DNA of 63,243 bases, counting the filler, from Sanchytrium tribonematis (lineage: Eukaryota): assembly GCA_018985235.1 (NCBI GenBank). It is 9 parts of 9 records of this genome, joined end to end, with 100 filler letters (N's around TTAATTAATTAA, not from the genome) between each part and the next. Parts side by side here need not be neighbours in the genome. Positions count along the whole stretch, not along the records: positions 1 to 25,399 come from JADGIG010000067.1; positions 25,500 to 30,164 come from JADGIG010000694.1; positions 30,265 to 34,923 come from JADGIG010000695.1; positions 35,024 to 39,679 come from JADGIG010000696.1; positions 39,780 to 44,413 come from JADGIG010000697.1; positions 44,514 to 49,141 come from JADGIG010000698.1; positions 49,242 to 53,860 come from JADGIG010000699.1; positions 53,961 to 58,552 come from JADGIG010000700.1; 1 more part is not named here. One strand, given 5' to 3'. Shown one piece after another: positions 1 through 63,243 of the stretch. Each line of letters begins with the position of its first letter. Position 1 is the stretch's first letter. The notes under the pieces were generated by a model. The model saw only the letters and a program-made list of their open reading frames with translations. It was not told the origin of the DNA and made no database searches. The position numbers and the translations under genes were made by a program.

Positions 1-388
1 AGACAAATTTACCCGCCTATCAATGTGCTTCCTAGTCTTAGTCGATTAATGAAATCTGCTATTGGAGAAGGTTTTTATCTTTAATTAAGGAATGACTCGG
101 GCAGATCATGGCGATGTTTCAAATCAATTGTATGCCAAATATGCCATCGGTAGAGACGCGGCAGCTATGAAGGCTGTGGTAGGTGAGGAAGCTTTGAATC
201 AAGAAGACAAATTGTCGCTTGAATTCTTGGAGAAATTCGAAAAAACATTTATTGCACAAGGTCCATATGAAAGTAGAACCATCGTAGAAAGTTTGGATTT
301 GGCTTGGTCATTACTAAGAATTTTCCCAAAAGAAATGTTAAATCGTATATCTCCAAAATACTTGGACCAATACTATGCTAGAAAATAA
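1..388 (+). CDS. VMA2: V-type ATPase subunit B, 3' part (join <1..70, 90..388)
   Basis: [44 protein letters not shown] is restored by removing the 19-nt intron 71..89. Confidence 0.97.
71..89 (+). other. 19-nt spliceosomal intron
   Basis: GTTTTTATCTTTAATTAAG; removal restores AIGEGMTR. Confidence 0.95.
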
Positions 389-460
389 AATCTTTGATTG
401 GGCTTTTAAGGATTTTGGAAATTTGAAAACAAAAGGAGACGAAGCATTGTCACGAGTTGA

Positions 461-1308
461 ATGGCTCAATTATTTGAGAATGCAGGCGCTTATTTAAAAA
501 GTTTTGTGAGTGACGACTGGGAGACTTTTAATGAAGGTGGGTGGTTTTTGTCTCCGACTCAGCATTTAATCGAAAATCTGATAGTGCTTCCTGTAAGCAT
601 TATCTGCATATTTATTGGAGTGCAGGTTTACAAATATAGTTCATCAATGTTTCCAGTCACTTATTTAAAGCATACAAACAAATCTGAGAAATTCTTAGCT
701 TTTTTATTGCTTTTCAGTTGGGGTATGTTGTATTTGCACAAATTATGGCGCAATGCAATCCCGTATTTACTACAGCCTTGTCACATGTTGAGCGTAATAA
801 GTGCTCTTGTATTTTTTATGCCTAAAAGATGGACCATCACTCATGTAGCTGCATTGATTGCAATCCATTTACAATGGTAAATTTACACTGATGTAGGACC
901 ACCTTGTTAGCTATTGCAACACCCGATACCGCTGATCATATTTATAGATTTGAAACCTTGAATTTTTGGATTGAACATTATTTATTAGTTGCGGTACCAT
1001 TTTTGATTTTAAGATCGTTTGATTTTTCGAAAGTTCTCGGATACAAAGTATCTGTAGCAGTTTGGGGATTCTTTCTGATGTATCATTACTATATTTTGTT
1101 TCCGATCTCATTAAAAACCACAGCCAATCTAAATTACATACTTAAACCACCTAAAGGACCTTTGGAACTATTTGGAAAATATTACCGGTTTCCCATGCTT
1201 TTATTTACTTTGGGAATAACCGTTACCACTGGGAAATTAGTGATACCTTTCCAGACAAGAATTGTGCAAAAATTTAAAAAAGAATTGAGAAAACAAAAAA
1301 TTCAATAA
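461..1308 (+). CDS. TMEM164-family membrane protein (join 461..876, 897..1308)
   Basis: LLQPCH, NFWIEHYLL and NLNYILKP motifs; multiple TM helices; a 20-nt intron joins the two ORFs in frame. Confidence 0.8.
877..896 (+). other. 20-nt spliceosomal intron
   Basis: GTAAATTTACACTGATGTAG; joins HLQW to TTLLAIATPDT. Confidence 0.88.
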
Positions 1309-1342
1309 ATTTATTATCATTAATGACGTGATTTTTCTTCCA

Positions 1343-4148: not shown

Positions 4149-5505
<1,357 letters not shown>

Positions 5506-6804: not shown

Positions 6805-8336
6805 TTGTTTGAAAGGAGATCCTCGAATTTGAAACGTATTTGGGATACTTTTGATAATAAATGGAGCATTTATTTTGTTTGACGTAAATAATTGATTAAT
6901 TTAATCTTGTAGAATGAGCACTCAACGATTGATGTATGATTTAATCCCATCTCCAAGTTTACCGAGGGAACTTGTAATTGAAAAATCACCAAATAAAGCC
7001 CATGCCGAGTTATAAAACATTAACACCTAATAAATCTAATTCTTAATTTATATTGAACTTCAATTAGCTTTTAGTAATCTTCTAATTGATCTTGACAATG
7101 TATAATAAATACCATCTTATAAAGTTTTTACCAATTCAACGATCCCCCTCCAGCTCAATTCCTCAGAGGGGACTTGAGTAAATAATTAAGAAGGTATAAT
7201 TAACTCGCTCCCCCCATATTTTAAAATGTCAAAAAAACAATAAAAGATTACGTACTTCATATATTATTCATTTTACTAGTGAAATCAACGGTTTTCTTTG
7301 CGTCAGCAGTTTCTTCATCTTAATCGAATTGTGCAATTTTAAATTTTTTTGCAGTCATTGAGTATGCTATTTATTTAATAATACATTTACAACACTAAAC
7401 CAAACTAAGCCATTTTCAATAATGGAAAGTGGAGCTTGATCCCAGTGCTCTACAATTCATTTTCTCAAATTACTAATAGGTGGTTTTCTTAATACTTTTG
7501 ACAATTCAGAATTTCCCATAAATTGTTAACTTGTTCAGTATAAAAGTTTCTGATAGACTTTCTGATATTACTCTTTTAAGATCTAATAATTGCCACATCT
7601 GCTACTTGGCAATATCCAGTTGCACCTTTTGAAACATATAAGCATTTGCTAAATATTCACCTTAATATTTTCTGTTCTAGAAGCTCCATGTGCTGAGCAA
7701 TCCAAATAAGCAATGCATTTCAAAATGGTAAAATGTGATTCAGATATTTGATTAATAATAACTGAGTAACCATCCTATTTAAGTATATCCCATAATACAA
7801 TCTTATTTAGCTGCACTTGTTGTTGCATTTACAATAAAAGGTTTAATTTTGGATCCATTTTTCTTATTTGCAATCATAAATGTAGTATTTGTTTTTTCTA
7901 TAAAACCACTAAAAATAGCGACTACATTGCACCTTTTTAACAACAGTTTTTGGCTTCCCAACATTCATCTAAATAGCAATTTCATCCATGAATAAAATAT
8001 TATCGTCCGTATAATTTGCAGATTCTTTTCTAACATCATAAATGTGATGTGCAGCTGAATTTTCTTATTCCATTTTATCTTTTTTAGTGGATTGTGTAGT
8101 TGATCTGTTAATTAATCCATTTCTATTTAACATTGCTTTGTACCAAGATCCATCTAATATATATTCTAATTCTTGGTTCAATTCATTTTTTAATCAATTC
8201 ATAATTAATAATTATTTTGCATTCCATCATAAACTAAATTCTTTCAATAGTAATCTCTTCAATACTTGCGAATTTCATATTATGTCCAAGTGGTACCACT
8301 TTACGCGATTCTCTCCCTTTAAAATTTAAAATGTTT

Positions 8337-8364
8337 AAGTGTCCACAATAAATCTTTTCTGTTT
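8337..8364 (+). repeat. Tc1 terminal inverted repeat (left)
   Basis: AAGTGTCCACAATAAATCTTTTCTGTTT; reverse complement of 9671..9698 with one mismatch. Confidence 0.88.
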
Positions 8365-16000: not shown

Positions 16001-16878
16001 ATGGCTACTTCCTGAGAATAGCAGTGAAAAAATGGAAATGCCCAAACCATTAGTTACTAAAAAATTCACTCTAAGTTACCTAACAAACGATCCCAAAACG
16101 CTTTTAGAAATTGACCCAATTGAAATGGCAAGGCAGTTATCTCTGATTGAGTATTCTTTATTTTACAAAATTCAGCCAAGAGAGGCTATTAACCAGGTTT
16201 ATGCCGACACTAGCGGCAAAGAAATTAATTTGTATCCAAATATTTTTAAAATGATTCAGTTTACAAATCAAGTCACCATGTGGGTTTGCTCCACTCTTGT
16301 TAGCATCAAAGAAATTAAAAGTAGAGTATTAATGATGAAATATTTTATGAGTATCGCAATTGCATGCAAAGAGATCCAAAATTTTAATGCGCTTACAGCT
16401 ATTGTTGCCGGCTTAACCATGGGCCCTGTGTTTCGACTTAAAAAGACACTTGCGAAATTAGAAAAAGGTTATCCTAAAATTAAGGAAGTTTACACCGAAA
16501 CAGTCAATATTGTTTCACCAAAAGGTTGATTTTATTTATTCAGGTCAATATGCGAATTACAGAAAACATTTAAAAACTTTACAGAAGCCGGTCCTGCCAT
16601 TTCTTGGTATTTTTATTACTGATATGACATTTGTAGAACTCGGTAATAATAATTATTTACCTGAAAATCATTTTATCAATTTTGATAAGCGGCGCAAGTT
16701 TTGCCAAATGATCAAAGAAGTCCAGGAATATCAAAAAAGTGGATTTCATTTTGTTCCAATCAGTTATATTCAAGAATATTTGTTTGCAGTTAAACCAGAG
16801 CAGAATGAAAATAAGTTATTTGAGAATTCACAATTTGTAGAGCCGCCTGAACAAGAAAGTGACGATGAAGATGTATAA
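13080..16878 (+). CDS. Ankyrin-repeat RasGEF (REM + CDC25 domain) (join 13080..16524, 16544..16878)
   Basis: Ankyrin GNTPLHLA/GVTLLMRA; IKGGRLTKLLEYLT; EMARQLSLIE; QNFNALTAIVAGL; PVLPFLGIFITD after splicing. Confidence 0.9.
16525..16543 (+). other. 19-nt spliceosomal intron
   Basis: GTTGATTTTATTTATTCAG; restores SPKGQYANYR. Confidence 0.93.
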
Positions 16879-16945: not shown

Positions 16946-18485
16946 TTACTTTTTTGATTTGCGTTGTAGGGTTTTTCTAGCTTGATTTGGATCCGAAAAT
17001 CCACTTTTTTCTGCTTCAACATATATTGAAGCTTTCTCCCGCAGAAACTTGACATCTTTCCTTGAGAGCTTTATTTGTTTGTATTTCTTCACAATTCGAT
17101 CTTCATTTAAATATTCATGTGGTATATGAAGCAAAAAATTTAGTAAATCACCGGTATTATCGTAAGAAAGTAACTTTGCTAAATAAAATTAAATTACTCT
17201 TACAGCACTCAAGAATGGCCAATCCAAATTTGAAAATTGCTTTTTCGCCTTCTGATAATATAACATCCCAAACTCTGAGGACTGAGGGCCAGGGTAAAGC
17301 CATTGTATACATTGTCATAAACCATTGAGTTGTGAATGTCAAAGCGTGAAGTTCATTTGTTTTTAAATGTTTATAAAGTTTTGGTATTTTCCTAAAGATT
17401 AGCCTTTCAAAAACGAGAGCATCTACTCTCATTTGAACTAGAGAAGGCAAGTACAATTTTGGTATATATTTCTGAATTATTGCATTAAATGTCCAAAATG
17501 ATTCTTCTGGTTCCATTCTCATAAGAAGCAGACCTGCCAGACGACCCATGCCCTGACAATATCCTATATCAGGATGCATATGTGTGAATGCTCGCAAAAC
17601 ATATTGAAGTTGGCTTTTTCCTTGATCATTCCGAAACTTCTGATGTTCAGGGTAACATCGAGAAATGTCTCGATCAATGACTTCATAGGTCTCGTTAGTT
17701 TCTCTGGTAGTCAATTCGGTATACAATAGTGGTTTAAAGTCATTTTCAAATCCAACTAATTTCTTCCAAACTTCCGGTCGAACAGAATTTGGAATTCCTA
17801 GTCGGCAAAGTTTTTTTATTTTCTTTCCTTTCCTTTTGGGATTCCAGTTATTAATAATTGCTTTCCATTGGCTTTCTAAATTTGTATCACTACTGATTTT
17901 GTTGTAGCCTTCATATTCGCCTTTTATTATAAATCCGTAGATGTCGAATTTTTCATCTATTTTGGGAGAAACTACATTTGGTTCCGCTAAACTTTTACGT
18001 TTCGTAGGATTAGGAGACACTGATTTTGGTACGGACTTGGTATTGTCAGGTGACTGCGGAGAAACCATGCCGCTTTCATCGATTTCTTTTACATTAGAAT
18101 TCTTCAAAGAAGTTTTTGATGATACTGCATGTTCATTTAATATAGCAGCACTTTCTACAACATGAACTTCATTTTGTATAACGGGTATTTCTTGAGGAAT
18201 ATCGGCGATGATTTCTTCTTTGTCAAAATTAGACCTGGAAATGCTAACTTCATCTTTTGGGGACTCTTGATGAATCATTTGCTGGCTAACCTGAAGAACT
18301 TTTGAAAGTAATTCTTCGCCCAATTGATTTCCGTTTCTTATTATATCATCAATATTATCGTTCCTAGGTGGATTCACGTCAATATCAATACTCTGGGCCA
18401 ACGAATGACTATCCCGACTGCCTTCTTGTTCTTCACTAGACGTGTTGCCTTCACTGCGCGGTCTTGACGGAGATTCACTATCCAT
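16946..18485 (-). CDS. TBC-domain Rab-GAP (join 18485..17198, 17178..16946)
   Basis: GIPNSVRPEVW, IDRDISRCYP, GYCQGM, VLRVWD; a 19-nt intron joins the last exon. Confidence 0.9.
17179..17197 (-). other. 19-nt spliceosomal intron
   Basis: GTAATTTAATTTTATTTAG (minus strand); gives ECCKTKLLSYDNTGDLLNFLLHIP. Confidence 0.88.
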
Positions 18486-18744: not shown

Positions 18745-20308
18745 ATGCAAAAGTCGGCAAAAATGTATTGGTCAGCAATAAAGTCTCAACACGTGCCTAT
18801 TCGCCCACAATATTTCACCAAACTTCCCCTTCAAATGACTCGTCAATCTTTCAGCCTTTGGGCATTCTGGGGTAGCATCGTCGTTGGTAATTTGGCACTC
18901 AACTACGTTTTGTTCCAGTCATTTATTGCTCTTTTGATCCAATTTGTTCCTGTGGGGTTTCTGATTGGAGTGACGTTCTTCTACAGCTTCAGTTACTACT
19001 ACACACCTTCTCACTATAAGGAAAAGAAACTTGTCCCAATGAATCAGTATTATCATGACTATATCCGACAAGTCATCAATCTTCCTAAAGATATCTGGCC
19101 TTTGCTAAAAAATAGACACCAACATGTGAGATTTGCATTTGCCGTTGAAGATTTCAAGTTTTTTTTGGGTACTTGGTTGCCTGAACTGTTATGGCACTCA
19201 AAGAGTCAAGACAAAGATCAAGTTACTGATCATTATGACCGTGGAAATGATTTTTACAATGCCTTTTTGGGAGACATGATGATTTACACTAGCGGTATGG
19301 TAACACCACAACTCTTAAAAGGTGTTCCTGAAAAAGATCTTGGAGACATTGAAGGAATGCTTAATGCTTTGGACTGCCCGTTTGGTTTAAATGCTTTAGA
19401 ATCCATCCAACTGGCTAAATTGAAACATGTTTGTCAAACTTTGGAATTAGAGCCTGGAATGAATATGCTGGATATCGGTTGTGGTTGGGGTACATTGGCT
19501 AATTACGCTTCAAAGAGATACGATGTCAATTCTTTAGGAGTTACTTTGGCAAAAAATCAAGTTCAATTTGGAAGTTATGTTGCTAAGCAATTAAATCAAT
19601 CTGAAAAGGTTAAATTGTTGGCTTGCGACTATCGTGATATTCCAAATACTAAATACGATAGAATCAGTTGTTTGGAAATGGCAGAACACGTTGGTGTAAA
19701 AAGATTTGGTGCTTTTATGGATCAATTGTATAATATTTTAAATGATGATGGTGTTTTGTTTATCCAGGTAGCTGGTCTTCGACGTGCTTGGCAATTAGAA
19801 GATTTGATTTGGGGATTTTTTATGGCCAGATACATTTTTCCTGGTGCAGACGCATCTACACCTTTGAATTGGTACATTAGTCAATTGGAATATGCTGGAT
19901 TTGAAATTCAATCCACCAAAACCATCGGTACTCACTATGGTGCTACATTAAAGGCATGGTACGATAATTGGTTAGAAAAGGAGGATCAAATTCGTCAAAG
20001 GTTGTTTTTATTTATTTAGATATGGGGAATATTGGGTCAGATTATGGAAATTCTTTTTGGGATGGTCCAGCATCATTGCCCATCAAGGAAATGCAACCTG
20101 CTATCAGATTGTTGCTATTAAGAACAGAAATGAATTCCGTCAAGTTGGTAAAGGTGGTAAACACAGTGTTCAAACTTGGACTAAACCAGTGGAATTGGAC
20201 CAACAAGACCGCGAATTTGTAGATGTAATGAGATCAAGCTGTCAACAAATTTGGAAGGGACAATTAGAACGCGCTGATAGTAAGCAAAATATTTCCACAG
20301 TCGAATAA
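18745..20308 (+). CDS. Sphingolipid C9-methyltransferase (CFA-synthase family) (join ~18745..20000, 20020..20308)
   Basis: HSKSQDKDQVTDHYDRGNDFY, LDIGCGWG, CLEMAEHVG, YIFPGADASTPL; spliced YGEYWVRLWKFFLGWS..QGNATCYQI; start codon uncertain. Confidence 0.9.
20001..20019 (+). other. 19-nt spliceosomal intron
   Basis: GTTGTTTTTATTTATTTAG; restores IRQRYGEYW. Confidence 0.94.
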
Positions 20309-20336: not shown

Positions 20337-21537
20337 ATGAAACAAAAAAGAGCAAAAAAAAGCAACAGTAATTCTAATATGGCCATTGACAAATATTCTG
20401 CATACGGTGCAGGATCTTCGTTTGCAGGGCAACTCGGAAAAGATGGTGGCAAATTCAGGACACCTAATCCAATCCAAATTGAAGAAGATGTTTTAATGAT
20501 TGCAGCTGGTGGAATGCACAGTGTATTTTTAACAAAAAAAGGAATTTATACTTGTGGATGTGGTGATATTTATGCGACTGGTCGTAAAGATGATGAAGAT
20601 GAAGTGATTTTACAAGTTCAAAGTACTAATATTTCATATGTTGCTGCATCTGACAGCATGACATTATTCGTCACTCAGGGACAACTTTATGCGTTTGGCA
20701 CATTTAAAGATGAAAATGGTGGCAAAAAATTCAATAAGACTACAGAGATACAACAGACACCCTCTCTTGTACCTATTAATGATCGAGTTGTATCTGTGGT
20801 TTGTGGAAGTGACCACGCATTAATTTTATGTGAAAGTAAAGACTGTTATGCTATTGGAGTTGATACATTATATCAAATTGGTTATAGGACAAGCGCTAGA
20901 ATACAAGATGATAGGTGGATTACTTGCGATCGACCTTTGTGCAAAAATATTGTTTTAACTGGTGCTGGTGATTTTCACTCAGTAATAGTTAGCGACACTG
21001 GAAATATATACACTTGTGGGTTGAATGGTTTTGGCCAATGTGGATATTTGAGAACCAATGCCACAGCTACTGTTACATTTGCACTAAATAAGCAATTAAC
21101 TATGTTTTTCAAGCAAAAAGGGCTTGAATTGAAGCAAGTTGAAGGTGGAGTCGCCAACACCTTATTTTTAACAACCAATGGAGAAGTTTATGCCATTGGT
21201 AAATCAGATGGAGGAATGCTTTGTAAATCTGTTGAATATGTCGGTGAAGAGTATTCTTTTGAGCCTATCAAAATTGAATTTTCTAAAAAAGTAATAATCG
21301 ATTCAGTTTCTACTGGAGGAAATGCTTGCATCGCAGTTTCAACAGATGGCGTAGCCTATTCATGGGTAAATCATATTAATTTAGGGCCAAATAGTCAATT
21401 ACGCAACAGCTCATGGCATTGAAACAGAAAATGATATTTACTCTCCATTAAAAATTCCTGGATCACACATTGAAGGAAAAAGGTGCACTGCCGTATCTGT
21501 TGGCGGGCAGCATTCCTTGTTTATTTATCGAGAATAA
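20337..21537 (+). CDS. RCC1-repeat protein, RanGEF RCC1/Pim1-like (join 20337..21365, 21385..21537)
   Basis: Basic N-terminal NLS, AAGGMHS, CGSDHAL, GLNGFGQCG; spliced YSWG and terminal SVGGQHSL. Confidence 0.85.
21366..21384 (+). other. 19-nt spliceosomal intron
   Basis: GTAAATCATATTAATTTAG; restores AYSWG and the last RCC1 repeat. Confidence 0.92.
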
Positions 21538-21622: not shown

Positions 21623-23423
21623 ATGAATGAAAATCAACCAGGGAATTCTGGTTCAGGAATGGATATAGATAAACTTTTAAATTACACAGAAGAGATAAAA
21701 TTAAATACTTCACAAAACTTAGACACATCGCGTAAACCATCAAAATTACAAAGAAAAAACAGAAGATCAACAAATCCACAATCGCCGATTGATAAACATT
21801 CAGATCAAGTACTGGAGAATTCAAATATTAATTCAGAAACAATTTCTAAAAATGAAATGACCTTTAAACAAAAAACCATAGAAACTAAATCTGCATCTTG
21901 GTCGCACTTGCCTGTCATTAAAACCGCAGCCTTGGATCCAAATGAATTTGAATCTGATTCCATTAAGAAAGAAGCTGCTGCAAAAATTATACAAAGAGCC
22001 TACAGGCTTCACTTAATTAGAAAACATTTTAAGAAAATTAAAGAATTGAATATAACGAAAGCACCATCCGAGAATGGTATAACGCATCCTTCTACTAAAA
22101 TTGGAACTGCAAGAACCTCGGTTTCTTTCTTGGGGCTAAAGCTTATCGAAAATAAAGTTGATCAAGCTCCATCCGTAGATGAACAATCAGAAGATCAGTT
22201 AGAAGTACTTCCATTGATTTTGGACGACTCAGTTGTTAAGAAAATGCCTGATGAATGGGATGCAATGAGAATTGAGGCCTTTAACAGAAAGCCAAAAGAT
22301 TGTGTCAAATTATTTATCAGAGAAAGTACAACTGAAGAAGATCTCTCCATCAATATCGCAAAGTTTCTGGATAGAGCTCCTGGTCTAGATAAGGTGAAAA
22401 TTGGTGAACTTTTAGGAGAACCAGATGAACTTTCCTTAAAAATCTTGAAACATTATGTTGCCTTGCAACAATTCCATGACTTGCTATTTAATGAAGCTTT
22501 GAGAAAATTTATTCAAAAATTTAAACTTCAGGGAGAAGCTCAGAAAATCGATAGAATTATGAGCGAATTTGCAAATCAATTTTGTTTTGACAATCCAAAC
22601 AGTTTTAAATCGTCATCAACCGCTTACGTACTTGCATTCAGTTTAATCATGCTAAATACTGATGCTCATAATCAAAGCATAAAAAAGAGAATGTCGTTAC
22701 AGGAATTCATAAAAAATAATAGGGGAATTGATGAGGGGAAGGATTTAGACGAAAAATTCCTTAAAACTCTTTATTTTGATATTAAATTTTCGGAAATTAA
22801 AATGAATGACAATTCAGACCAAAAGGCCCTGGACATCTGGAATAACATTCTACCAAAACCCATTGTACTTAATATTTACTTAGGCAATATTTAAAGATAG
22901 AAAGCTTTTATCGCAATATGAGCTTGTAGAGTTCAAAGATGTTGAAAAGTTTATACCACACAAAGCGCCCAGATTTGTATTTCTATTTGCAGATATGGTC
23001 GTAATTACTAAAATGAATGGTCCTAAGAAGTACGCTCTCAAAAGGCGGATATATTTGCAAGACTTAAAAATGAGGATTCTTACTGAAAACAATCAACTGA
23101 TTGTCATTTTGTCTTCAGAGGAACGCAAAAGTGCATTTCAGTTCACCCATATGGAAGCACTTGAGGTGTTTGTTCGTCATTTTGAGCAAGCCATACCTGC
23201 ATTTGAAAATGACAGAGATATATTAATTGTCAATGCCAAGAAATCTGTTGAAGAAAAATATGGTATAACTAATTATTCAGATTCAAATGTAAGTATATCT
23301 AGTCTCAAAAGTGAGACAAAAGATCTTCAAGTCAGAGGTTCCTTTAGATCGCCATTTGGACCATCTTCTAAATCGATAATATTAAATCGGCGGAGGAGCA
23401 ATACGCAACAAGGTACTATATAG
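21623..23423 (+). CDS. IQ-Sec7-PH Arf-GEF (IQSEC/BRAG-like) (join 21623..22864, 22884..23423)
   Basis: IQ motif IIQRAYR; Sec7 FKLQGEAQKIDR and LAFSLIMLNTDAHN; PH-like RFVFLFADMVVITK after splicing. Confidence 0.85.
22865..22883 (+). other. 19-nt spliceosomal intron
   Basis: GTACTTAATATTTACTTAG; puts the Sec7 and PH ORFs in frame. Confidence 0.9.
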
Positions 23424-31030: not shown

Positions 31031-32384
31031 TTAATCGCCTTTAGTATGAATACCAGTATTATCATACGAAAAACCGTAAAAGTCATCTTCTGGAGAAGAA
31101 GGAATTGAGACAAAGCATCCTGAGTCTTTTCTGATGACATCATCTACTCGTTCTTCTAGAGCTTCAGGATCCAGGTACATTGTATCATAATCGCTTGACT
31201 AAATGAATTCATAATACGACATTAGGAGTAAAAGTTGGTTGGTATTCTTTTCTTAGCAATTTTTTCCAGTCAAGACCTTGAAAATATTTGTGGTTCTTTA
31301 CTTCTTGAGCACCTTTATAACCCAATCTGTTTTTGGGATTTCTCTGTAATAATCTGGAAATGAAGTCAATTGTATTAGGATTAAATGATAAAGGAAAATT
31401 GACTTTACACTTTAAAATATTATTATAAATCTGTTCCGATTTGGTGGAATAAAAGGGAGGGACACCGACCAGCATCTCGTAAGTGACATTCCCTAGGCAC
31501 CAAAAATCGACAGTTGCGTCATAATTTTGTCGTAGTAAAATCTCAGGGCATAAATATTCGACAGTACCACAAAAGCTCTTGGCATTTAAGTCATCCAGAT
31601 GACAGCTTTTAGCCAATCCAAAATCGCATAAAACAATGTGACCATCAGGTCCAAGTAGTAAATTTTCAGGCTTTAAGTCACGGTATAAAAACCCTTTTTT
31701 GTGTAAATAATCCAAAGCCGAGGTGATTTCGGCACAATATAATTTAGCTCTGCCTTCTGAAAATCGTCTTTCTCGCTGTAAATGATAATATAATTCTCCT
31801 CCATTTATAAAATCCATACAGAAAAAGAGATGAGATGCGGTTTGAAATGTGCACTTTAAATTGATCAGAAATGGATGACTCAGATGACACATTATATTCC
31901 TCTCATCCATTACATGTTTGATTTCATTTTTTTCGATAAGTAGATCTTTCTTCAAAACTTTGATTGCAACAGAAGCGTTTGTTTCTTTATCAATTGCATG
32001 TAATACTCGCCCAAAAGTACCTCTTCCTACTACTCTTATCAATTTGTATTGATCGAGGGATTTAGTACGTGGCCTTCCAGTAAACTCCATTTGTAAGCCA
32101 AGATGAGTGTCTAAAAATGCACTCAAAATGGAACTGCTCTTTAAACATGGGTGATTTTCAACGACTCGTATCCAATCTTCCAACAATTCGAGCCTCTTCT
32201 TCATATTAGCGTCCGTTTTGATCCATATCTTTTTAGGAAATATTGGTAGCTTAACGAAAGGATATTTTTCGAGTAGCAGGTCATTGAATTGATGAAATTG
32301 ATTGTATCTTCTCTTAATAGGACCTTCCTTAGTCTGAAGAACATAGTAAGTCGTATTTGTTTGAAAATCGTAAATCGACTGCAT
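31031..32384 (-). CDS. PX-domain AGC kinase, SGK3/CISK-like (join 32384..31218, 31198..31031)
   Basis: PX RRYNQF..LPIFPKK; GRGTFG, YRDLKPEN, SFCGTVEY; last exon supplies the hydrophobic motif FYGFSY. Confidence 0.88.
31199..31217 (-). other. 19-nt spliceosomal intron
   Basis: GTATTATGAATTCATTTAG (minus strand); gives PTFTPNVSSDYDTMYLDPE. Confidence 0.93.
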
Positions 32385-38571: not shown

Positions 38572-39259
38572 ATGTTTCTTTTCGACGTCGATAATACTTT
38601 ATACCATCACAGCAAAGGCGTTGGAAAATTGATGGCAGATAAAATCATCGAATATTGTAAGACTCTTGGTTATTCTTACAAAGAAAGTGCGGATTTATCA
38701 CTTCGATATTATATAGATTATGGTTTAGCCATTAGAGGATTTGTGAAGCATCATAATATCGATCCTTTGGATTACGACTTAAAAGTAGATCAATCCTTGC
38801 CCTTGGATGGTCTTATAAAAGAAGATGTGGAGTTAAGAAATATTTTAATGAAATGTAACCAAAAACGATGGGTATTCACCAACGCTGCGAGGCCGCATTG
38901 TATAAGAGTACTCAAGTTGCTGAATGTGTCAGATTGTTTTTCCGGAATTACGCATTGTAAATATGAGAACCCTAATTTTTATTGTAAACCAGATGTTGAA
39001 TATTATTATGAAGTTTTAAAGGAATCCAACTACGATGGTCAAGAAACTATTTATTTTGTAGATGACTCTCTTAAAAATTGCAAAAGAGGTCAAGAATTGG
39101 GCTGGAAGGTTTGTCACGTTCTCACTGGAGATTACCCTGATCAAACGACACCGATGCAACACATCACATCACTTGGTATTTTTAATTTATTTAGGTATCA
39201 TCCCACAAATCAAGACGATTCACGATATTGTGAATATATTTCCTGAATGCTTTGAATAA
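38572..39259 (+). CDS. SDT1: HAD pyrimidine 5'-nucleotidase (Sdt1/Phm8-like) (join 38572..39175, 39195..39259)
   Basis: FDVDNTLY, YGLAIRG, WVFTNA, CKPD, FVDDS; spliced tail IHDIVNIFPECF. Confidence 0.85.
39176..39194 (+). other. 19-nt spliceosomal intron
   Basis: GTATTTTTAATTTATTTAG; yields a family-like C-terminus ending GAA-TAA-A. Confidence 0.85.
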
Positions 39260-42213: not shown

Positions 42214-43772
42214 TTAAAATGCAAACTTTTGCTGCTGTGAGCCAAACGCAAAAGTGCCATCGTCGTTTAGTTGCTGTTCTGCCATGCTGTCATGTTGAAA
42301 GTATTTGTCTAGCAACCCTGAACATTTCTTATAAATTTCATCATTATTCATGTGAGTCAAGTTACTCAATCTATCATGTGCACCAAATTCTTCTGCTACT
42401 TGTACATATCTGTTATATCCTCCTTAATTAAAAATTAAATACCACCAGCTTGCGCCATTAAGTCTCCTACTTTTAAGATATTAGCAATTCCATCTAAAGA
42501 AACTTGAATGATTCCTACGTCCATGCAATTTAATATTTCTAACAAAGGTCCCATGCATCCACATTGAACTAGATAATCTACCTGCTCTGGATTTTGAAGT
42601 CCACCAGTGGTGGCATTACTAATTGCCCAACAAGCCTCTCTTTTTGTTTTCATATCACCATGCTGTAAACATTGAACAAGATTCGGAATCATTCCTGCAT
42701 CAATGACTCTTTGAATTTGTTTAGAATTTCCAGCCGTAATATTAGAAATGGTCCAGCAGGCTTCTTTTTTGATGGACTGCTTATTTGAGCTTAACAGTCT
42801 GTATAAGGGCTCAAGAACATTATTGCTGAGCACGACTTCTGTTTGAAGATCGCTTCCGGTCACAATATTGCCAATGCTTCGCAATGCGGGTGTCTGTACA
42901 TTTGGATTTGGATGGCCTAAAAGTTCGATTAATCTTGGAATGACACCACTTTGAATAACTTGCTCAATTCTATCGTTAGTTCCATCAGAAATGTAAGATA
43001 TTGACCATAAGGTATCTACTAAAATTTCCTCATCCGAAGTTGAAAGCAAATTACGTAAAACTGGTACAGCAGGTTCTAAATAGGACCATTCAGCGGATGG
43101 ATGCTTTCCCCTACAAAAGTTGCTCAGAGTCCACGTAGCATTTCTTACTAGAGATAATTTTGTTGATTCTGTCATGAGAATATTAAGCAATGGCGCCATT
43201 GCACCACAACGTAAAACTGCATCACGACATTGAGGCGCATCGCCAGCAATATTTCCTAAAGCCCAAACAGCTTGTTCTTTAACATCCATGTACTCACTTT
43301 GTAAAAGTCTGACAAATTCCACTACAGCGCCTGATTGTATTACAGTAGCAGTTTGGTCAGAACTTCCAGACGCAATATTAGTCAAAGCCCATGCAGACTC
43401 AAAAATAATAACGCTGTTATGGTTAGATAACAATTGAACTAATATTGGGACAATTCCTATCGCGATGATATTATCAATTGGAGGATTTCTTTCTTTACTA
43501 AGTAATCTTCTAATTTGCACTACAGTTGTCAAAAGTAATTTATCATCATGTCTCTGTTCTAAATTCATTTTCAAGGTAGCAAAGTCATTTGATGGGTCCG
43601 GAACTACTATATTTTCATTTCGGTTTTCATCAACTGTTAGTCTCCGCTTTTGCAAATTCTCTTCTCGTTTTTGTCTCCTCAATTGCAAAGTTGTATCTTC
43701 TCTTCTCTTTTTAACCTCATCTGCTCCAAATTGACTTCTTTGTTTAAATGCAGTTTGACGGTTGTTCATCAT
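42214..43772 (-). CDS. SRP1: Importin alpha (join 43772..42443, 42422..42214)
   Basis: IBB domain, ARM repeats (AWALTNIASG); last exon YNRYVQVAEE..NDEIYKKC..LLDKYF. Confidence 0.96.
42423..42442 (-). other. 20-nt spliceosomal intron
   Basis: GTATTTAATTTTTAATTAAG (minus strand); restores the ARM10 exon. Confidence 0.88.
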
Positions 43773-44572: not shown

Positions 44573-45611
44573 TTATTGAGTAGGTGAATTGGAGTCTGAA
44601 TCTACCTGTTTATGTTCTGAGTCTTCTTCGTTTGCAATCTCTTGTCCATTTTCATCGACAGCAACTAACTCGATTATCTTGACTCGTGCAAATTCGGATA
44701 TCCATTTGCTGCTTTTACTTTCACCAAGACCATCAAGAATCTTTTGAAAGCTTTCGATATCCTCACGCAAGATTGCGCTCTTAAGATCGACCGGACAAGC
44801 CTTTAAAACTTCAGATTTTTCAGAACTTGGAGAAAGATCAAAGAAATGGCCGTCCTCAGGTTGGTTTAAACAACTCATCTTTTTCGACATTTGGATTTTT
44901 GACACCTGAAGCTTTTAATTTTTCGCCATAGGCGAAAGCATATTCAAAAGCCGCAGAAAGAAGAGTTTCTTGGTTTTTAGAATCTACGATCTCCGGATTA
45001 CTTTGAATAAAATTGTAAATTTCTTCAATATTTTTTAATCCAACAAATTGCAAGAGTGTTCGATTATTTTTAAGAGAATCAGGAACGATGAATAAACCCG
45101 GTTGATTGACGGTTACAAATTTCTTATCACTTGAGGCAGTGAAGCTGTCCTCAGGATTTTCAGGAGGTGATTTTGATTTTTGCTGTTTTTTCACATTAAC
45201 TCTAGTTGTACTAAAACCTTCGTGACACACTTTATCAACAGATAAATCTGCCTCTTCTTTCTTTTTTAATTGCAAATAGTCTTTTTGAATCAAATCGTAA
45301 ACCCGCTGCAATTCTTCAGCATATTGACTTCTCTGAAATTTCGGCAAATCCTGTTCTAGTTTTGGAATAGCTTTGAACAGCTGATTTAAATCAGCTTCTG
45401 GGTTCTGTTTTACAGACTCAATAGCGCTTTTCAAAAGGATTTGATTTCGCTCCATCAGTTGCAAATGGTCTCTTCTTTCATCTCTTTCTTTATGAAGGGC
45501 CTCTCTTTTCCATTTAATAAACGATTTTTTATCGATATTGGGGTGGCATTCTGTATCTGAATCGTCACTTAGTGTTAAATTGTCCCACTTTGAATATGAT
45601 ATTGCTGACAT
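44573..45611 (-). CDS. CDC37: Hsp90 co-chaperone Cdc37; frameshifted and apparently missing part of the middle domain near 44860-44900
   Basis: ISYSKWDNLTLSDDSDTECHPNIDKKSFIKWK N-domain; C-domain-like VLKACPVDLKSAIL in another frame. Confidence 0.8.
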
Positions 45612-45667
45612 GAAAGGGAGATTTGTTTGGAAATTAAAAAGAAATTCCTTCCAATCAAACACTCCTG

Positions 45668-46099: not shown

Positions 46100-46100
46100 A

Positions 46101-58552: not shown

Positions 58553-58652
58553 NNNNNNNNNNNNNNNNNNNNNNNNNNNNNNNNNNNNNNNNNNNNTTAA
58601 TTAATTAANNNNNNNNNNNNNNNNNNNNNNNNNNNNNNNNNNNNNNNNNNNN

Positions 58653-59836: not shown

Positions 59837-60233
59837 ATGAATGTGACTTGTCAATGGAATGGATGCTTTGTTGATTTGCCGATAGAAGAAATGGTGGATC
59901 ACGTTTCAAATACCCATATTGGCTACAAACGAAATGACACTTTTCAAGGGAAATGCAAGTGGATTTGTGTAAACCGGAACAACAACATACCCAACTGTAC
60001 TGAATGCCATTATACCGGAGGAAGTAGACATCTTTTGCTTTCTCATATTCGCAGACATTTTGAGACGAATGCCTACATTTGTGAAATTTGTAAAAAGGCT
60101 AGTTATAAATGGAAAGTAATAAAGATTAACGCAGCACGATATGCTCAAACACTCGAGAAAATGCAAGTCTAAGAAGTTTGAAAAGCTTGTAAACTTTCTC
60201 TTTGAGGGTGTGCCCTTGAACTTGACACAATAA
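59837..60233 (+). CDS. 125-aa PacC/Rim101-like three-zinc-finger protein (join 59837..60115, 60135..60233)
   Basis: TCQWNGC..HVSNTHIGYK..CKW..RHLLLSHIRRH..CEICKKASYKWKHDMLKH after splicing. Confidence 0.65.
60116..60134 (+). other. 19-nt spliceosomal intron
   Basis: GTAATAAAGATTAACGCAG; completes the third zinc finger. Confidence 0.88.
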
Positions 60234-60287: not shown

Positions 60288-60318
60288 AACTCTACTCCAA
60301 ATTATTCTAAATATAGTA

Positions 60319-60861
60319 ATGGCATTAAAAGAATATCAGGTTGTCGGAAGATTAAAGCCTAATGCAACTAAAAGAGCATCAGCTAATCCTGCTCTATATA
60401 GAATGAGAATTTTTGCACCTAGTCACGTTGTTGCAAAATCTAGATTCTGGTACTTTTTAAAGAAAATGAAGCGAGTCAAAAGAGCAAATGGAGAGGTTGT
60501 CTCTCTAAATGAATTACATGACACTAATCCAAGAACTGCAAAAACTTACGGAGTTTGGATCAGATACGACAGCAGAAGTGGAACTCATAATATGTACAAG
60601 GAATACAGGGCTTTAACTAGAGCAGAAGCAGTCGAAGCAACTTATAATGATATGGCTGCTAGACATAGAGCTAGATTTTCTTCCATTCATATCATCAATG
60701 TACAAGTAGTTAAAAGTTCTGACGTTAAGCGTCCTCATATTGCAATGCTATTGAAAGAGGATCTTAAATTTCCACTTGTTCACAATGTAGCCGGTGAAAA
60801 AGCAAAGGAGAAGAAATACAAGAGCAAATTTGTTGCTTATCGACCAAATACTTTTCAGTAA
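60319..60861 (+). CDS. RPL20: 60S ribosomal protein eL20 (L18a)
   Basis: LYRMRIFAP..VAKSRFWYFL, YDSRSGTHNMYKEYR, MAARHRAR; intronless. Confidence 0.98.
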   Translation: MALKEYQVVGRLKPNATKRASANPALYRMRIFAPSHVVAKSRFWYFLKKMKRVKRANGEVVSLNELHDTNPRTAKTYGVWIRYDSRSGTHNMYKEYRALTRAEAVEATYNDMAARHRARFSSIHIINVQVVKSSDVKRPHIAMLLKEDLKFPLVHNVAGEKAKEKKYKSKFVAYRPNTFQ

Positions 60862-60875
60862 AATAGTATGATTAT

Positions 60876-63243
60876 TTATTGCTGTTGGTTTGCTAGTTCT
60901 TTTTTCTCTCTTTCTGTTATAAGCTGAGAATACTTGTAAATATGTGATTCTTTGAGGGCTCTTAAATTAGAACAAAATTCATAGGCAGAGGATGTATTTT
61001 CAAGGTAAGGAAATTGATATTGAGTGCCTTGAAATTTCTCTATGGTTTTGGATTTTCTCAGCATTGTTTGTAATTTGTCTATATTTACCATGTTGTCAAT
61101 CATCTTCTGGTTACCGTCATTTATAAAAAATAAGTCTTTGGCCAACAGTCCTAAATAAAATCAAAATACCTAGAAATGGAATAAAAGGCTCATCATCAAA
61201 ATCTTTTTCCACTTTGTCAAATATCTGCCTGTAATTTTTGTAATTGCTTTGAGGGCTGACTATAGTTTCCAATTCTTGAAGTGTCTCTTTACTCTTCTCG
61301 CTCACTGCTTCCCAAGTCATTTTGAGCCGCGAGACAGCTGCCAAATTAAGACCAGAAACCACAGCTACTAGCGCATTGTAGTTTCTGTATCTCTCCAATT
61401 CCTTCGCTATTTTTATAAATTTTTCGATGAGCTTGATTCTTGGTTTTAACTCGGGTTGTGTAGCTATTTCGGTGGCAACCCAATAACTAAGCTGGTTAAA
61501 TTGTTGAATCATTTCGCTATAATTAACTAACTCAGCCGACACATCAGGGTTTCTCAGATCTCCCCACAGTTGAAGAAGTAACTCAAAAAATCGAATTTTG
61601 CAAAATTTTTCATACTCTACAACACATATTTGTTGGGCGATATCCGAAGCTTCAAAATCCGAAAAGTCTTTTCGCTTTCCAGAGACACTCAACTTTAATT
61701 TTGGTTGAGATATTTGAAAAATTCTTAATTCTAGATAAAAGCGGGACAATGCTGCTATCTCACAAAAGCTGTCATGAAGCTGTTGCTCTAACATAACGTC
61801 TTCTACTTCTGAAAACTCCGATAGCTCAAATAAAATAAATATTTTCTCAAGAACTCGTCTATTTTCTGCAATTTTAAAATCAAATGGGTATTCTTTTATC
61901 CATCGGAGAAGAATTTTCACAATACGGGCTCTAATTGGAGTTCTCCATTTTTTAAAATAAAGCTTGTCATCTTCCGATGGCTTCTCTGGTAGTACTGAAT
62001 TGAACCGAATAAGTAACTTATCAAGTGTGACAGATATTGTTGAAAAATGTCTACTACCAAGAATAAAGGCATCTACAAATGACTCGTCTGGAACACCATG
62101 CTCGTCGCAAAGCCTTTCTACAAACTTATCTATTTTCGCTGCTATGATGCAAAATCTACTGCGTTTATTTCCTTCGTCTATGCCGTATCTAATATTTGAG
62201 TTTGCATGAGAACTTGCCTCAATAATAACCTGGACATCGCTATTGTTTCTCTTTACGTCCATGCCAGTCATCTTTGCAATTTCATCTTGAATATTTGTTG
62301 CTTCAATTGGTGAAGTCATCCAAGCATCTTCATTGCTAGATCCTTTCGAGTTTACCTCGAGCTGAGAGTTGGAATTTTTCTCTTGATCAGTCAGCGTACC
62401 GTCGGAAACTTTGTCAGTATTCGTTCCTAAAGGAACAGGGGCAATAACACTACTGGAGGACGATTGTGTAAATAAGGTAGGTATTACATTGGAGGTATTG
62501 ACATTTTCTAATATCGGATCTTGTTTTCCACGCATCATTACACTTTTCCTTCTGCCCAATGTCGCATTTATGGTAGGACCCTGTGTTCCTTCTTTTGCAC
62601 TTGTTCTACGAGACGCATTAAGTGAGGTATCTGTAGATGATATGTCCTCTGGGAGAATATCAAGGGAGTCTTTGCGAAGGGTATTTTTAGTGTTTAATAA
62701 TTCTTGAATTTCTAGCGATGTTAAATCTGGTACAATATAACTTTTGGTGTCTAAAGCTGTAAAATCAACCATTTTTAATTCTTTAATAATCGTTGCAACC
62801 TCAGTAACATAGTCAGAAGATTTTTGATCTCTCGCACCACTTTGCAACAAGTCTCGAACCATGTCTCTCGTTTGCTGGTCATTCAATACAGAAACTAAAT
62901 ATAGTGTATTTGCAGCGGTATTAATACTTGCAACCCACCTTATCATTTCTTCATGGTTATCTGCTTCAAATGTGAACATATCTGAATCCAGCATGATATC
63001 AAAAGAAGCGACATTCGTAGGACTAGAATCCACGACTGCCAGTGAATTTTTGGTCAACTGTAGCTTTTTAACTAATTGCTGCCTAGTCAAATTTTTATAC
63101 ATTAACAATTCATAATCCCGCAGCTCGATGAAGTAAGATGTAGTGGACTGCGTACTAACAGAATTTAGACAAGCTTTGACGTGACCTTGCGCAACAGATG
63201 GATGAAGCATTTTAAGCATCAATTTTGCATTCACCTTTTCCTT
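60876..63243 (-). CDS. PH-domain RasGEF (REM + CDC25), 5' truncated (join >63243..61170, 61150..60876)
   Basis: PH FEADNHEEMIRWVASI; DIAQQICVVE; RNYNALVAVVSGL; IPFLGLLAKDLFFINDGN after splicing. Confidence 0.9.
61151..61169 (-). other. 19-nt spliceosomal intron
   Basis: GTATTTTGATTTTATTTAG (minus strand); restores PFLGLLAKDL. Confidence 0.95.

What the first reader, a model, noticed from the sequence alone, without database searches (positions are those of the whole stretch)
71..61169. One intron per gene, always near the stop codon (strong 3' bias)
Seen: the coding length downstream of each intron is 299, 412, 476, 335, 233, 289, 153, 540, 168, 65, 209, 292, 99 and 275 nt, regardless of gene length. 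Examples are 3445 intron-free nt before the intron in the ankyrin-RasGEF and 1330 nt in importin alpha. No gene shows two introns, and RPS23 and RPL20 have none. Established: intron-poor genomes such as budding yeast and microsporidia keep introns near the 5' end, enriched in ribosomal protein genes, usually explained by reverse-transcriptase-mediated loss from the 3' end. This window shows the opposite. Inference: these tiny introns may be recognised only via terminal-exon definition coupled to cleavage/polyadenylation, or only the last intron escapes loss. A 3' bias may already be reported for a few early-diverging fungi, so novelty needs checking.
Basis: partly seen in the sequence, partly recalled or inferred. 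Interest (0 to 1): 0.8.

Follow-up and report, generated by a model that had tools for sequence, protein, structure and literature searches.

The report
Tiny fungal introns crowded near stop codons
Fourteen genes of a very compact fungus-like genome each carry one 19-20-base insert with intron-like ends, always in the back half of the gene; these are predicted to be ultrashort introns, and their position is the reverse of the front-loaded pattern that intron-poor genomes usually show.

Summary
All 14 elements sit at the stated places. Twelve are 19 nt and two are 20 nt. All have GT...AG ends and T at -8, A at -6 and C/T at -5. Removing them rebuilds conserved motifs such as GTPDYI/APE, SCPV/CR and PFIPFL/G, and three spliced models align without gaps to homologues.

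In the 12 complete genes the mean relative position is 0.79 and the minimum 0.50 (uniform null P = 1.4e-4). I found no 5' or hidden introns. There is no RNA run and no whole genome, so splicing itself is not shown.

The window is nine contigs joined by linkers. The closest named relative is the sanchytrid Amoeboradix gromovi.

Two introns keep their position in three related lineages. Two others are precisely absent in a relative. The introns are therefore old, but they turn over.

Public ORF-based proteins of this organism stop at the introns (P0121, P0241, P0361). I found no paper reporting these introns.

My best reading is that they are likely surviving last introns. Why the 3' end is favoured is open; coupling to a poly(A) signal that overlaps the stop codon is untested.

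The parts
71..89 (+). 19-nt intron in the V-ATPase subunit A gene (5' end cut by the window start); 299 nt to the stop
   Evidence: GT..AG ends with A at -6. Splicing rebuilds AIGE/GMTR. The downstream exon hits ATP-synt_VA_C profile positions 6-101/101.
877..896 (+). 20-nt intron in a TMEM164-like gene; relative position 0.50, the least 3'-biased case
   Evidence: Upstream exon hits TMEM164 profile 3-101/217 (E=0.014) and downstream exon 106-216/217. One frame results.
5011..5029 (+). 19-nt intron in a protein kinase gene; 476 nt to the stop
   Evidence: Pkinase profile 1-154 upstream and 164-263 downstream. The junction rebuilds GTPDYI/APE.
16525..16543 (+). 19-nt intron in the ankyrin-RasGEF gene, after 3445 intron-free coding nt; 335 nt to the stop
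   Evidence: RasGEF profile 1-127 upstream and 129-181 downstream. The spliced model aligns without gaps across the junction to P0364 and P0362. The window's own public ORF, P0361, stops at the intron.
17179..17197 (-). 19-nt intron in a TBC RabGAP gene; 233 nt to the stop (a 25-nt donor at 17203 would keep the same frame)
   Evidence: Frame restored and consensus motif. The downstream exon has no significant Pfam hit.
20001..20019 (+). 19-nt intron in the sphingolipid C9-methyltransferase gene; 289 nt to the stop; position shared by three relatives
   Evidence: The spliced model aligns without gaps to fungal and animal homologues. ORFs of A. gromovi (P0243) and of two unnamed lineages (P0242, P0244) all end right after IRQR.
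21366..21384 (+). 19-nt intron in an RCC1-like gene; 153 nt to the stop
   Evidence: WD40_RLD profile 3-322 upstream and 327-363/363 downstream (E=0.015). The junction reads YSW/GQ.
22865..22883 (+). 19-nt intron between the Sec7 and PH domains; 540 nt to the stop; position shared by three relatives
   Evidence: ORFs P0122, P0123 (A. gromovi) and P0124 all end at ...PKPI followed by V. Distant homologues continue into a PH domain that aligns with the downstream exon.
31199..31217 (-). 19-nt intron in a PX-AGC kinase gene; 168 nt to the stop
   Evidence: Pkinase profile 1-263 upstream. The downstream exon hits Pkinase_C 2-44/44 (E=0.015).
39176..39194 (+). 19-nt intron in a HAD hydrolase gene; 65 nt to the stop
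   Evidence: Perfect consensus sequence. The spliced frame ends in a stop embedded in AATAAA. There is no homology support for the 21-aa tail.
42423..42442 (-). 20-nt intron in the importin alpha gene, after 1330 intron-free nt; 209 nt to the stop; absent in A. gromovi
   Evidence: The spliced model aligns end to end without a gap to P0001 (A. gromovi, 81% identity), whose genomic ORF is continuous. Arm_3 domain hit downstream.
48400..48418 (+). 19-nt intron in the Hrd1/synoviolin RING E3 gene; 292 nt to the stop
   Evidence: zf-RING_2 profile 2-42/44 ends at the junction. Splicing completes the last CPxC of the RING as SCPV/CR.
60116..60134 (+). 19-nt intron in a small zinc-finger-like gene; 99 nt to the stop
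   Evidence: Contains a TTAAC branch-like box. Splicing completes a C2H2-like spacing, CEIC...H-x4-H.
61151..61169 (-). 19-nt intron in a PH-RasGEF gene (5' end cut by the window end); 275 nt to the stop
   Evidence: RasGEF profile 1-155 upstream and 151-181 downstream. The junction rebuilds PFIPFL/GLL.
44859..44914 (-). Unresolved frame break in the Cdc37 gene, about 300-340 nt before the stop, with no 19/20-nt consensus intron
   Evidence: CDC37_N hit upstream and CDC37_C 13-90/100 in the other frame downstream. The only GT..AG options are 25 or 10 nt. Contigs of run X1 split into two alleles at this place.
23263..23280 (+). 18-nt in-frame, stop-free motif match inside the last exon of Sec7-PH; possibly a second intron, unresolved
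   Evidence: Matches GT..CTAAT..AG. The frame is open through it, and there is no homologue or RNA to decide.

Best explanation
The window holds 14 inserts of 19-20 nt with GT...AG ends and a fixed branch-like A, each in the 3' half of its gene, whose removal restores conserved reading frames. They are predicted to be ultrashort U2-type spliceosomal introns of a very compact sanchytrid-like fungal genome. They are likely the surviving last introns of genes that lost all their other introns.

Shown: the sequence signals, the frame and motif restoration, the positional skew in this sample, the same intron position in related lineages for two introns, and precise absence in a relative for two others.

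Inferred: that the spliceosome removes them, and that the skew comes from preferential survival of the intron nearest the 3' end. The cause I favour, with low confidence, is that recognition of such minimal introns (5' site only GTW) would be helped by the nearby poly(A) signal that overlaps the stop codon. Introns further upstream would then be poorly spliced and would be purged by precise loss.
For: Signals: 14 of 14 have GT and AG, T at -8, A at -6 and Y at -5. Lengths are 19 nt (12) or 20 nt (2), and A+T is 81%. The A lies 5 nt before the 3' end, as in Stentor's 15-nt introns (PMC9505925, passages).

Enrichment: 21 pattern matches against 8.3 expected, with 0 of 100 shuffles reaching 21. 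The sense-strand spike occurs at 19 nt only.

Coding continuity: Pfam profile coordinates continue across the junction in 9 genes. Motifs are rebuilt at the junctions. Three spliced models align without gaps to homologues.

Position: mean relative position 0.79 in 12 complete genes, P = 1.35e-4. All 14 lie within 540 nt of a stop, although that zone is only 40% of the 48.5 kb of coding sequence (2.7e-6; the threshold was chosen after the fact).

Age: introns 6 and 8 hold their position in 3 of 3 relatives' ORFs.

Turnover: intron 11 is absent in A. gromovi and intron 4 is absent in P0364.

Poly(A) signal: AATAAA overlaps the stop at -2 in 16 of 38 genes and lies within -2..+19 in 27 of 38.
Against: No RNA run is available, so excision is not shown. 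There are only 14 introns from 63 kb, and the genome is not held.

The standard reverse-transcriptase model predicts loss from the 3' end, the opposite of what is seen (PMC532390, abstract and passages). No known process removes 5' introns first.

Only 14 of the 38 genes with a 3' end in the window have an intron, so the intron is not a general requirement for 3'-end formation. AATAAA near the stop is no more frequent in intron genes (12 of 14) than in intronless genes (15 of 24; Fisher P = 0.16).

Motif look-alikes within about 200-250 nt of stops lie inside open frames and must stay unspliced.

Downstream length correlates weakly with gene length (Spearman 0.58, P = 0.048), so 'regardless of gene length' is not strict.

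Gain and loss cannot be told apart without an outgroup's gene structures.
Confidence: 0.45

Rival explanations
1. The introns are real, but the 3' skew would come from 3'-biased gain. New introns would enter mRNAs by reverse splicing and be copied back into the genome through poly(A)-primed cDNA, which covers 3' parts best. The stem lineage would thus have acquired short introns near gene ends.
For: Presence/absence differences between close lineages, with exact boundaries, for introns 11 and 4. [quoted passage not shown] 2004; I saw only its title in the reference list of PMC3488318). Phases show no phase-0 excess: 4 in phase 0, 7 in phase 1, 3 in phase 2.
Against: Two of the four introns tested are fixed in position across lineages that share only 55-60% (Sec7) or 78-85% (methyltransferase) protein identity, so any gain would be old. 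The likeness between introns goes no further than the splice signals and T-richness. Nothing shows the direction of change.
Confidence: 0.2
2. The introns are real, but the skew would be a sampling or detection effect. Genome-wide, positions would be uniform or 5'-biased, and this window misses introns that leave no ORF break: very 5' introns, UTR introns, or in-frame introns.
For: Only 63 kb is available and there is no RNA. ORF logic cannot see an exon 1 of a few codons. One 18-nt in-frame candidate exists (23263-23280), as does one unexplained frame break in Cdc37.
Against: The introns come from six of the nine unlinked contigs. P = 1.35e-4 against a uniform distribution. The first Met lies within a few codons of the ORF start in most genes. 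The N-termini coincide with homologues or with Pfam profile starts for importin alpha, Sec7-PH, RPS23, RPL20, Pin1, Utp11, Hrd1, HAD and TrpE. Once the 12 introns are removed, the motif matches drop to the chance level (9 left against 8.3 expected). 19/20-nt introns cannot hide inside long open frames.
Confidence: 0.1
3. The inserts are not spliced. The breaks would be read through by programmed frameshifting or translational bypassing, or they would be assembly errors.
For: No RNA evidence. The assembly is fragmented, and the read graph shows allelic bubbles.
Against: 14 of 14 inserts share GT..AG ends, a fixed length and a fixed branch-like A, which neither frameshift sites nor errors would give. 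Relatives' independent assemblies break the same two genes at the same codon, with a G-T start for the insert inferred in five of the six relative ORF ends. Homologues lack exactly the insert.
Confidence: 0.03

Closest known systems
Tiny introns of heterotrich ciliates (Stentor coeruleus, 15-16 nt)
   Same: GT..AG ends, a very narrow length range and U/T-richness. The branch A lies 5 nt before the 3' end (position 10 of 15 in Stentor, position 14 of 19 here) (PMC9505925, passages).
   Different: The introns here are 19-20 nt and sit in a fungal lineage. The density is about 0.27 per kb of coding sequence, with at most one per gene. Stentor introns are biased toward the 5' end (same paper); these lie in the 3' half.
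Mikrocytid introns (16-17 nt) and chlorarachniophyte nucleomorph introns (18-21 nt)
   Same: Uniform ultrashort introns in reduced, gene-dense genomes. The nucleomorph length range includes 19-20 nt (PMC10245619, abstract and passages).
   Different: These are unrelated lineages (Rhizaria; a green-algal relic nucleus). The nucleomorph has more than 800 introns in about 300 genes. The passages I read mention no 3' positional rule.
Intron-poor fungi and microsporidia with 5'-biased introns, enriched in ribosomal protein genes
   Same: Few introns, mostly one per gene, in compact holomycotan genomes.
   Different: The position is reversed: mean 0.79, none in the 5' half. Neither of the 2 ribosomal protein genes has an intron, against the 5' rule stated in PMC532390, PMC3488318 and PMC10245619.
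Published sanchytrid genomes (Amoeboradix gromovi, Sanchytrium tribonematis; PMC8371127)
   Same: The closest named proteins are A. gromovi ORFs: 81% identity for importin alpha, with Sec7 and the C9-methyltransferase on one contig as they are here.
   Different: That study predicted proteins as TransDecoder ORFs on contigs. Its only occurrence of 'intron' is in a cited title (passages). The introns are therefore unannotated and the ORFs end at them (P0121, P0241, P0361, P0123, P0243).

Membership tests
U2-type (major) spliceosomal introns | GT at the 5' end and AG at the 3' end | tested here: met
   14 of 14.
U2-type (major) spliceosomal introns | Branch-point A in a yUnAy-like context shortly upstream of the 3' splice site | tested here: met
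   T at -8, A at -6 and C/T at -5 in 14 of 14. This is a sequence motif only; lariat formation is not shown.
U2-type (major) spliceosomal introns | Removal yields the functional reading frame | tested here: met
   13 of 13 testable models give one frame ending in one stop. Conserved motifs and Pfam coordinates continue across the junctions. Alignments to homologues are gapless for 3 genes.
U2-type (major) spliceosomal introns | Absence of the insert from mature mRNA | not testable with these tools
   No RNA holder was listed. The relatives' proteins come from genomic ORF calls.
U2-type (major) spliceosomal introns | Spliceosome (snRNAs, core proteins) encoded by the genome | not testable with these tools
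   No genome is held, and there are no Rfam hits in the window.
U12-type (minor) introns | Extended 5' consensus (A/G)TATCCTT | tested here: not met
   0 of 14. The 5' ends read GTW followed by variable bases. The U12 consensus is recalled, not taken from a call.
Ultrashort fixed-length intron systems (heterotrich ciliates, mikrocytids, chlorarachniophyte nucleomorphs) | Nearly all introns within a 1-3 nt length range below about 21 nt | tested here: met
   12 of 14 are 19 nt and 2 of 14 are 20 nt. The motif spike occurs at 19 nt only. The sample is small.
Ultrashort fixed-length intron systems (heterotrich ciliates, mikrocytids, chlorarachniophyte nucleomorphs) | Descent from one of those lineages | tested here: not met
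   Best protein hits are fungal and the nearest named is A. gromovi. This would be an independent origin.
5'-biased intron-poor genomes (yeast and microsporidia type) | Introns concentrated near the 5' ends of genes | tested here: not met
   The minimum relative position is 0.50 and the mean 0.79 in 12 genes.
5'-biased intron-poor genomes (yeast and microsporidia type) | Enrichment in ribosomal protein genes | tested here: not met
   0 of 2 ribosomal protein genes (RPS23, RPL20) have a coding intron. This is a very small sample.

The most novel reading that the evidence does not exclude
In this fungal lineage, the spliceosome can recognise its minimal 19-nt introns only when they lie within about 550 nt of the poly(A) signal that is fused to the stop codon. 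That is a terminal-exon-only mode of splicing. It would turn intron position into a mechanistic rule and would explain a reversed, 3'-end positional bias in an intron-poor genome.
Probability: 0.2. Interest if true: 0.85.

Novelty: new variant of a known kind. Interest (0 to 1): 0.7.

Why it matters
Three points would matter if RNA data and the whole genome confirm this.

First, it would be a fourth, independent lineage with uniform ultrashort introns, and the first within fungi.

Second, it would be an intron-poor genome whose introns sit near the 3' end. That runs against the 5' rule used to argue for reverse-transcriptase-mediated intron loss. With related lineages that differ in intron presence, it offers a natural system to test how introns are lost, gained and recognised.

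Third, there is a practical consequence. The public ORF-based proteins of this organism and of A. gromovi end at the introns (for example 423 instead of 593 aa, 424 instead of 514 aa, and 1149 instead of 1259 aa). In this sample, about a third of genes (14 of 38) would therefore be truncated at the C-terminus in data sets used for phylogenomics and gene-content comparisons.

Tried and rejected
Searches and tools that gave nothing:
- Whole genome: none is held.
- RNA evidence: no RNA holder was listed; only DNA run X1.
- The JGI metagenome scan with the Sec7 alignment found no relative.
- Rfam and tRNA scans of the window found nothing.
- Earlier notes of this scan: nothing for this genome or its relatives, and one unrelated note by words.

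Readings I rejected:
- Multi-intron genes hidden in ORF-poor stretches. Region 49242-50700 has stops scattered in all six frames. Region 8337-9698 is a Tc1/mariner-like remnant.
- 5' introns. No motif match joins a short upstream exon to any main ORF, and the N-termini fit homologues.
- A hidden 18/21-nt intron class. There is no sense-strand excess at those lengths.
- The 19-nt match at 44969-44987 as the cause of the Cdc37 break. Splicing it would lead to a stop after about 17 codons.
- The introns as antisense poly(A) signals or promoter parts for neighbouring genes. By my reading of the coordinates intron genes have tandem and 7 have convergent 3' neighbours, so orientation is not consistent.
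- Tolerated truncation if the intron is retained. The junctions split catalytic motifs (kinase APE, RasGEF core, RING), and retained frames stop after 1-23 codons.
- The candidate at 24762-24780. It lacks the A at -6, and the gene already has a stop next to AATAAA.

The distance distribution cannot separate an exponential from a uniform 0-600 nt model (P = 0.17 and 0.40).


Full report
**What the window is**

The 63,243 bases are not one locus. Eight linkers of the form N44-TTAATTAATTAA-N44 join nine contigs: 1-25399, then eight pieces of about 4.6-4.7 kb. Several genes are cut at these joins, for example the aldehyde dehydrogenase, Lon, Mid1 and the TrpE-G-C fusion.

No whole genome is held. 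No RNA run was listed, only one DNA run, X1.

The DNA is 29-37% G+C and very gene-dense. Spacers between coding regions are about 4-110 nt.

The best protein hits are fungal. The nearest named relative is Amoeboradix gromovi (EukProt EP00835), with 81% identity for importin alpha. Its Sec7 and C9-methyltransferase orthologues lie on one contig, as they do here. I therefore treat the source as a sanchytrid-like fungus.

**The observation**

A scan looked for GT..AG elements of 16-23 nt that join a long upstream frame to a downstream frame. Explicit models followed.

- Twelve are 19 nt and two are 20 nt.
- All have GT and AG ends, T at -8, A at -6 and C/T at -5, and 81% A+T.
- The 5' site is only GTW, with no G at +5.

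The pattern GTW-N8-T-N-A-Y-NN-AG occurs 21 times against 8.3 +/- 2.6 expected, and 0 of 100 shuffles reach 21. Twelve of the 21 are the introns, and the other nine equal the chance level (the pattern was derived from the introns, so only the remainder is informative).

A looser motif (GT...A-Y-NN-AG, A+T at least 0.68) was counted for lengths 15-30. It shows 19 sense against 6 antisense matches at 19 nt, and roughly equal counts at every other length.

**Are they introns?**

Removal gives a single open frame ending in one stop in all 13 testable genes. Pfam profile coordinates run on across the junction:

| Gene | Profile upstream | Profile downstream |
|---|---|---|
| Kinase | Pkinase 1-154 | 164-263 |
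| Ankyrin-RasGEF | RasGEF 1-127 | 129-181 |
| PH-RasGEF | RasGEF 1-155 | 151-181 |
| TMEM164-like | 3-101 | 106-216 |
| RCC1-like | WD40_RLD 3-322 | 327-363 |
| PX-AGC kinase | Pkinase | Pkinase_C |
| Importin alpha | Arm repeats | Arm_3 |
| Sec7-PH | Sec7 | PH |
| V-ATPase A | (cut by window start) | C-terminal domain |

Junctions rebuild invariant motifs: GTPDYI/APE, PFIPFL/GLL, SCPV/CR of the RING, AIGE/GMTR and YSW/GQ.

Three spliced models align without any gap at the junction:
- importin alpha to A. gromovi P0001;
- the C9-methyltransferase to fungal and animal homologues;
- the ankyrin-RasGEF to P0364 and P0362.

If the insert is retained, every frame stops after 1-23 codons. Frameshifting, translational bypassing and assembly error do not explain shared GT..AG ends, a fixed length and a fixed A. 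Excision itself remains unshown because there are no RNA data.

**The 3' skew**

In the 12 complete intron genes the relative positions are 0.50, 0.64, 0.70, 0.77, 0.77, 0.81, 0.85, 0.86, 0.87, 0.87, 0.90 and 0.91. The mean is 0.79. The probability of such a mean under a uniform distribution is 1.35e-4, and the Wilcoxon P is 2.4e-4. The two truncated genes, V-ATPase A and PH-RasGEF, were left out of this test. Their introns lie 299 and 275 nt from the stop.

All 14 lie within 540 nt of a stop, while that zone holds 40% of the 48.5 kb of coding sequence in the 38 genes with a 3' end. That gives 2.7e-6, with a threshold chosen after the fact.

The introns come from six of the nine contigs. Fourteen of the 38 genes have one, and none clearly has two.

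'Regardless of gene length' is only roughly true: downstream length correlates weakly with CDS length (Spearman 0.58, P = 0.048).

**Could introns have been missed?**

- 19/20-nt introns cannot hide inside the long open frames.
- I saw no excess of 18- or 21-nt motif matches on the sense strand.
- First methionines lie close to the ORF starts. N-termini agree with homologues or Pfam profile starts for at least nine genes.
- ORF-poor stretches are a transposon remnant or lack frames altogether.

Three things remain open:
- an 18-nt in-frame candidate in the last exon of Sec7-PH (23263-23280);
- a frame break in Cdc37 (about 44859-44914). Its downstream part hits CDC37_C, but it has no consensus intron, and contigs of run X1 fork into two alleles there;
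- UTR introns, which cannot be seen without RNA.

Both coding cases lie in the 3' part of their genes, so neither would weaken the skew.

**Relatives**

Public proteins of relatives were called as plain ORFs on genomic contigs. Such an ORF that stops at the junction therefore marks an intron.

- Sec7-PH: the ORFs of A. gromovi (P0123) and of two unnamed lineages (P0122, P0124) all end at ...PKPI followed by V. Distant homologues run on into the PH domain.
- C9-methyltransferase: P0243, P0242 and P0244 all end right after IRQR. The residues that follow fit a GT donor in two of them and suggest a GC donor in one (inference).
- Importin alpha: the A. gromovi ORF is continuous.
- Ankyrin-RasGEF: the unnamed relative P0364 is continuous across the junction. 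Its ORF starts inside the RasGEF_N domain. That may mean an intron elsewhere in that relative or a contig end (unresolved).

So two of the four introns tested are old and fixed in position, and two differ between lineages by exact presence or absence.

The window's own ORFs in the database (P0121 at 423 aa, P0241 at 424 aa, P0361 at 1149 aa) stop at the introns. The introns are therefore not annotated.

**Mechanism**

The stop codon is TAA in 30 of 38 genes. It is embedded in AATAAA (hexamer start at -2) in 16 of 38, and the hexamer lies within -2..+19 in 27 of 38 (the counts are my reading of that output). A likely poly(A) signal therefore sits 65-540 nt from each intron's 3' end.

Several results weigh against it:
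- only 14 of 38 genes have an intron;
- AATAAA is no more frequent in intron genes (Fisher P = 0.16);
- motif look-alikes about 200-250 nt from stops must remain unspliced.

The distances fit an exponential of mean 275 nt, as expected if the last intron of a moderately intron-rich ancestor survived. They fit a uniform 0-600 nt model equally well.

I commit to 'old last introns that preferentially survived near-total intron loss' at 0.45. Coupling to 3'-end formation is the favoured but untested reason, at about 0.2. 3'-biased gain is the main rival at 0.2. Sampling or detection effects get 0.1, and non-splicing readings 0.03.

**Literature**

- Intron-poor genomes are described as 5'-biased, with poly(A)-primed reverse transcription as the usual explanation (PMC532390, abstract and passages; PMC3488318, passages).
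- Stentor's 15-16-nt introns have the branch A 5 nt from the 3' end and a 5' positional bias (PMC9505925, passages).
- Mikrocytids have 16-17-nt introns and chlorarachniophyte nucleomorphs 18-21-nt introns (PMC10245619, abstract and passages).
- The sanchytrid genome paper predicted proteins with TransDecoder on contigs, and its only 'intron' is in a cited title (PMC8371127, passages). The same is true of PMC10459994.
- Searches for sanchytrid plus introns (0 papers), Sanchytrium, Amoeboradix and intron (8 papers, none on nuclear introns by listing and passages), tiny or ultra-short introns with chytrid or Holomycota terms and intron-poor with terminal-exon or stop-codon terms found no report of these introns or of a 3' bias.
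- One search was too broad to be useful. In PMC8476143 the passages I read did not deal with position.
- The search tool cannot match the prime sign, so phrases such as 3'-biased could not be searched directly. Supplements were not read.

**Verdict**

The elements are predicted ultrashort spliceosomal introns, which would be new for fungi. Their 3' skew is statistically clear in this sample and unreported as far as I could search. The cause of the skew is open.

Noticed in passing
window 25400-25499, 30165-30264, 34924-35023, 39680-39779, 44414-44513, 49142-49241, 53861-53960, 58553-58652: Eight linkers of the form N44-TTAATTAATTAA-N44 show that the window is nine separate contigs (25.4 kb, then about 4.6-4.7 kb each in falling size). 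ORFs that touch a linker are cut genes, not real ends.
   Followed up: yes
stop codons of 38 genes, e.g. window 20306-20308, 39257-39259, 48708-48710, 60231-60233: The stop codon is TAA in 30 of 38 genes. It is embedded in AATAAA in 16 of 38, and the hexamer lies within -2..+19 of the stop in 27 of 38. This suggests a poly(A) signal fused to the stop and very short 3' UTRs.
   Followed up: partly
e.g. window 24753/24758, 48710/48715, 31022/31031, 30602/30612, 5505/5516: Spacers between coding regions are extremely short: 4-67 nt between convergent stops and 9-110 nt from a stop to the next ATG. Transcripts of neighbouring genes must overlap, or their UTRs are tiny.
   Followed up: partly
window 8337-9698: A Tc1/mariner-like remnant. 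It has 33-nt inverted repeats (8337-8369 and 9666-9698, 91% complementary) around broken minus-strand ORFs with a DDE_3 hit (8662-8946). It lies in a 3.9-kb ORF-poor stretch (6900-10799).
   Followed up: partly
window 44576-45689 (-): The Cdc37 gene is split between two frames near 44859-44914, with no consensus intron. Contigs of DNA run X1 fork into two alleles at 44871-44994 (depths 80 and 148). One X1 contig (record 1) is laid in two separate pieces that abut at 44867-44869, inside the break region; 170 of its own letters between them match nothing in the stretch, and the tool listed no joint there. The break may be an allelic or assembly indel.
   Followed up: partly
window 44514-46200: The main X1 contigs differ from the window at 18 single-base places over about 1.7 kb, mostly transitions. 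This suggests two alleles or strains in the sequenced material.
   Followed up: no
window 53961-56874 (-): One open frame joins the chorismate-binding (TrpE), glutaminase (TrpG) and indole-3-glycerol-phosphate synthase (TrpC) domains. Its 3' end is cut by the contig end. It has 2.9 kb of intron-free coding sequence.
   Followed up: no
proteins P0121, P0241, P0361 (window ORFs 21623-22891, 18745-20016, 13080-16526): The public protein collection already holds this organism's ORFs, ending a few codons into the introns (423, 424 and 1149 aa). The deposited proteome is therefore truncated at the C-terminus for intron genes. The same holds for A. gromovi P0123 and P0243.
   Followed up: yes
protein P0364 (relative of window 13080-16878): An unnamed relative encodes the RasGEF C-terminal 369 aa without the intron, but its ORF starts inside the RasGEF_N domain. 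This may mark an intron at a different, more upstream place in that lineage, or a contig end.
   Followed up: partly
window 49242-50700: A 1.45-kb stretch with stops scattered in all six frames and no family hits. It is non-coding or decayed sequence in an otherwise packed genome.
   Followed up: partly
window 18730-23423 and relatives' contigs: The gene neighbourhood is conserved. The C9-methyltransferase and Sec7 genes share one contig in A. gromovi (NODE_61, ORFs p6 and p4). In the two unnamed lineages the two orthologues list the same longest-contig length (31,194 and 5,656 nt), which suggests one contig each.
   Followed up: partly
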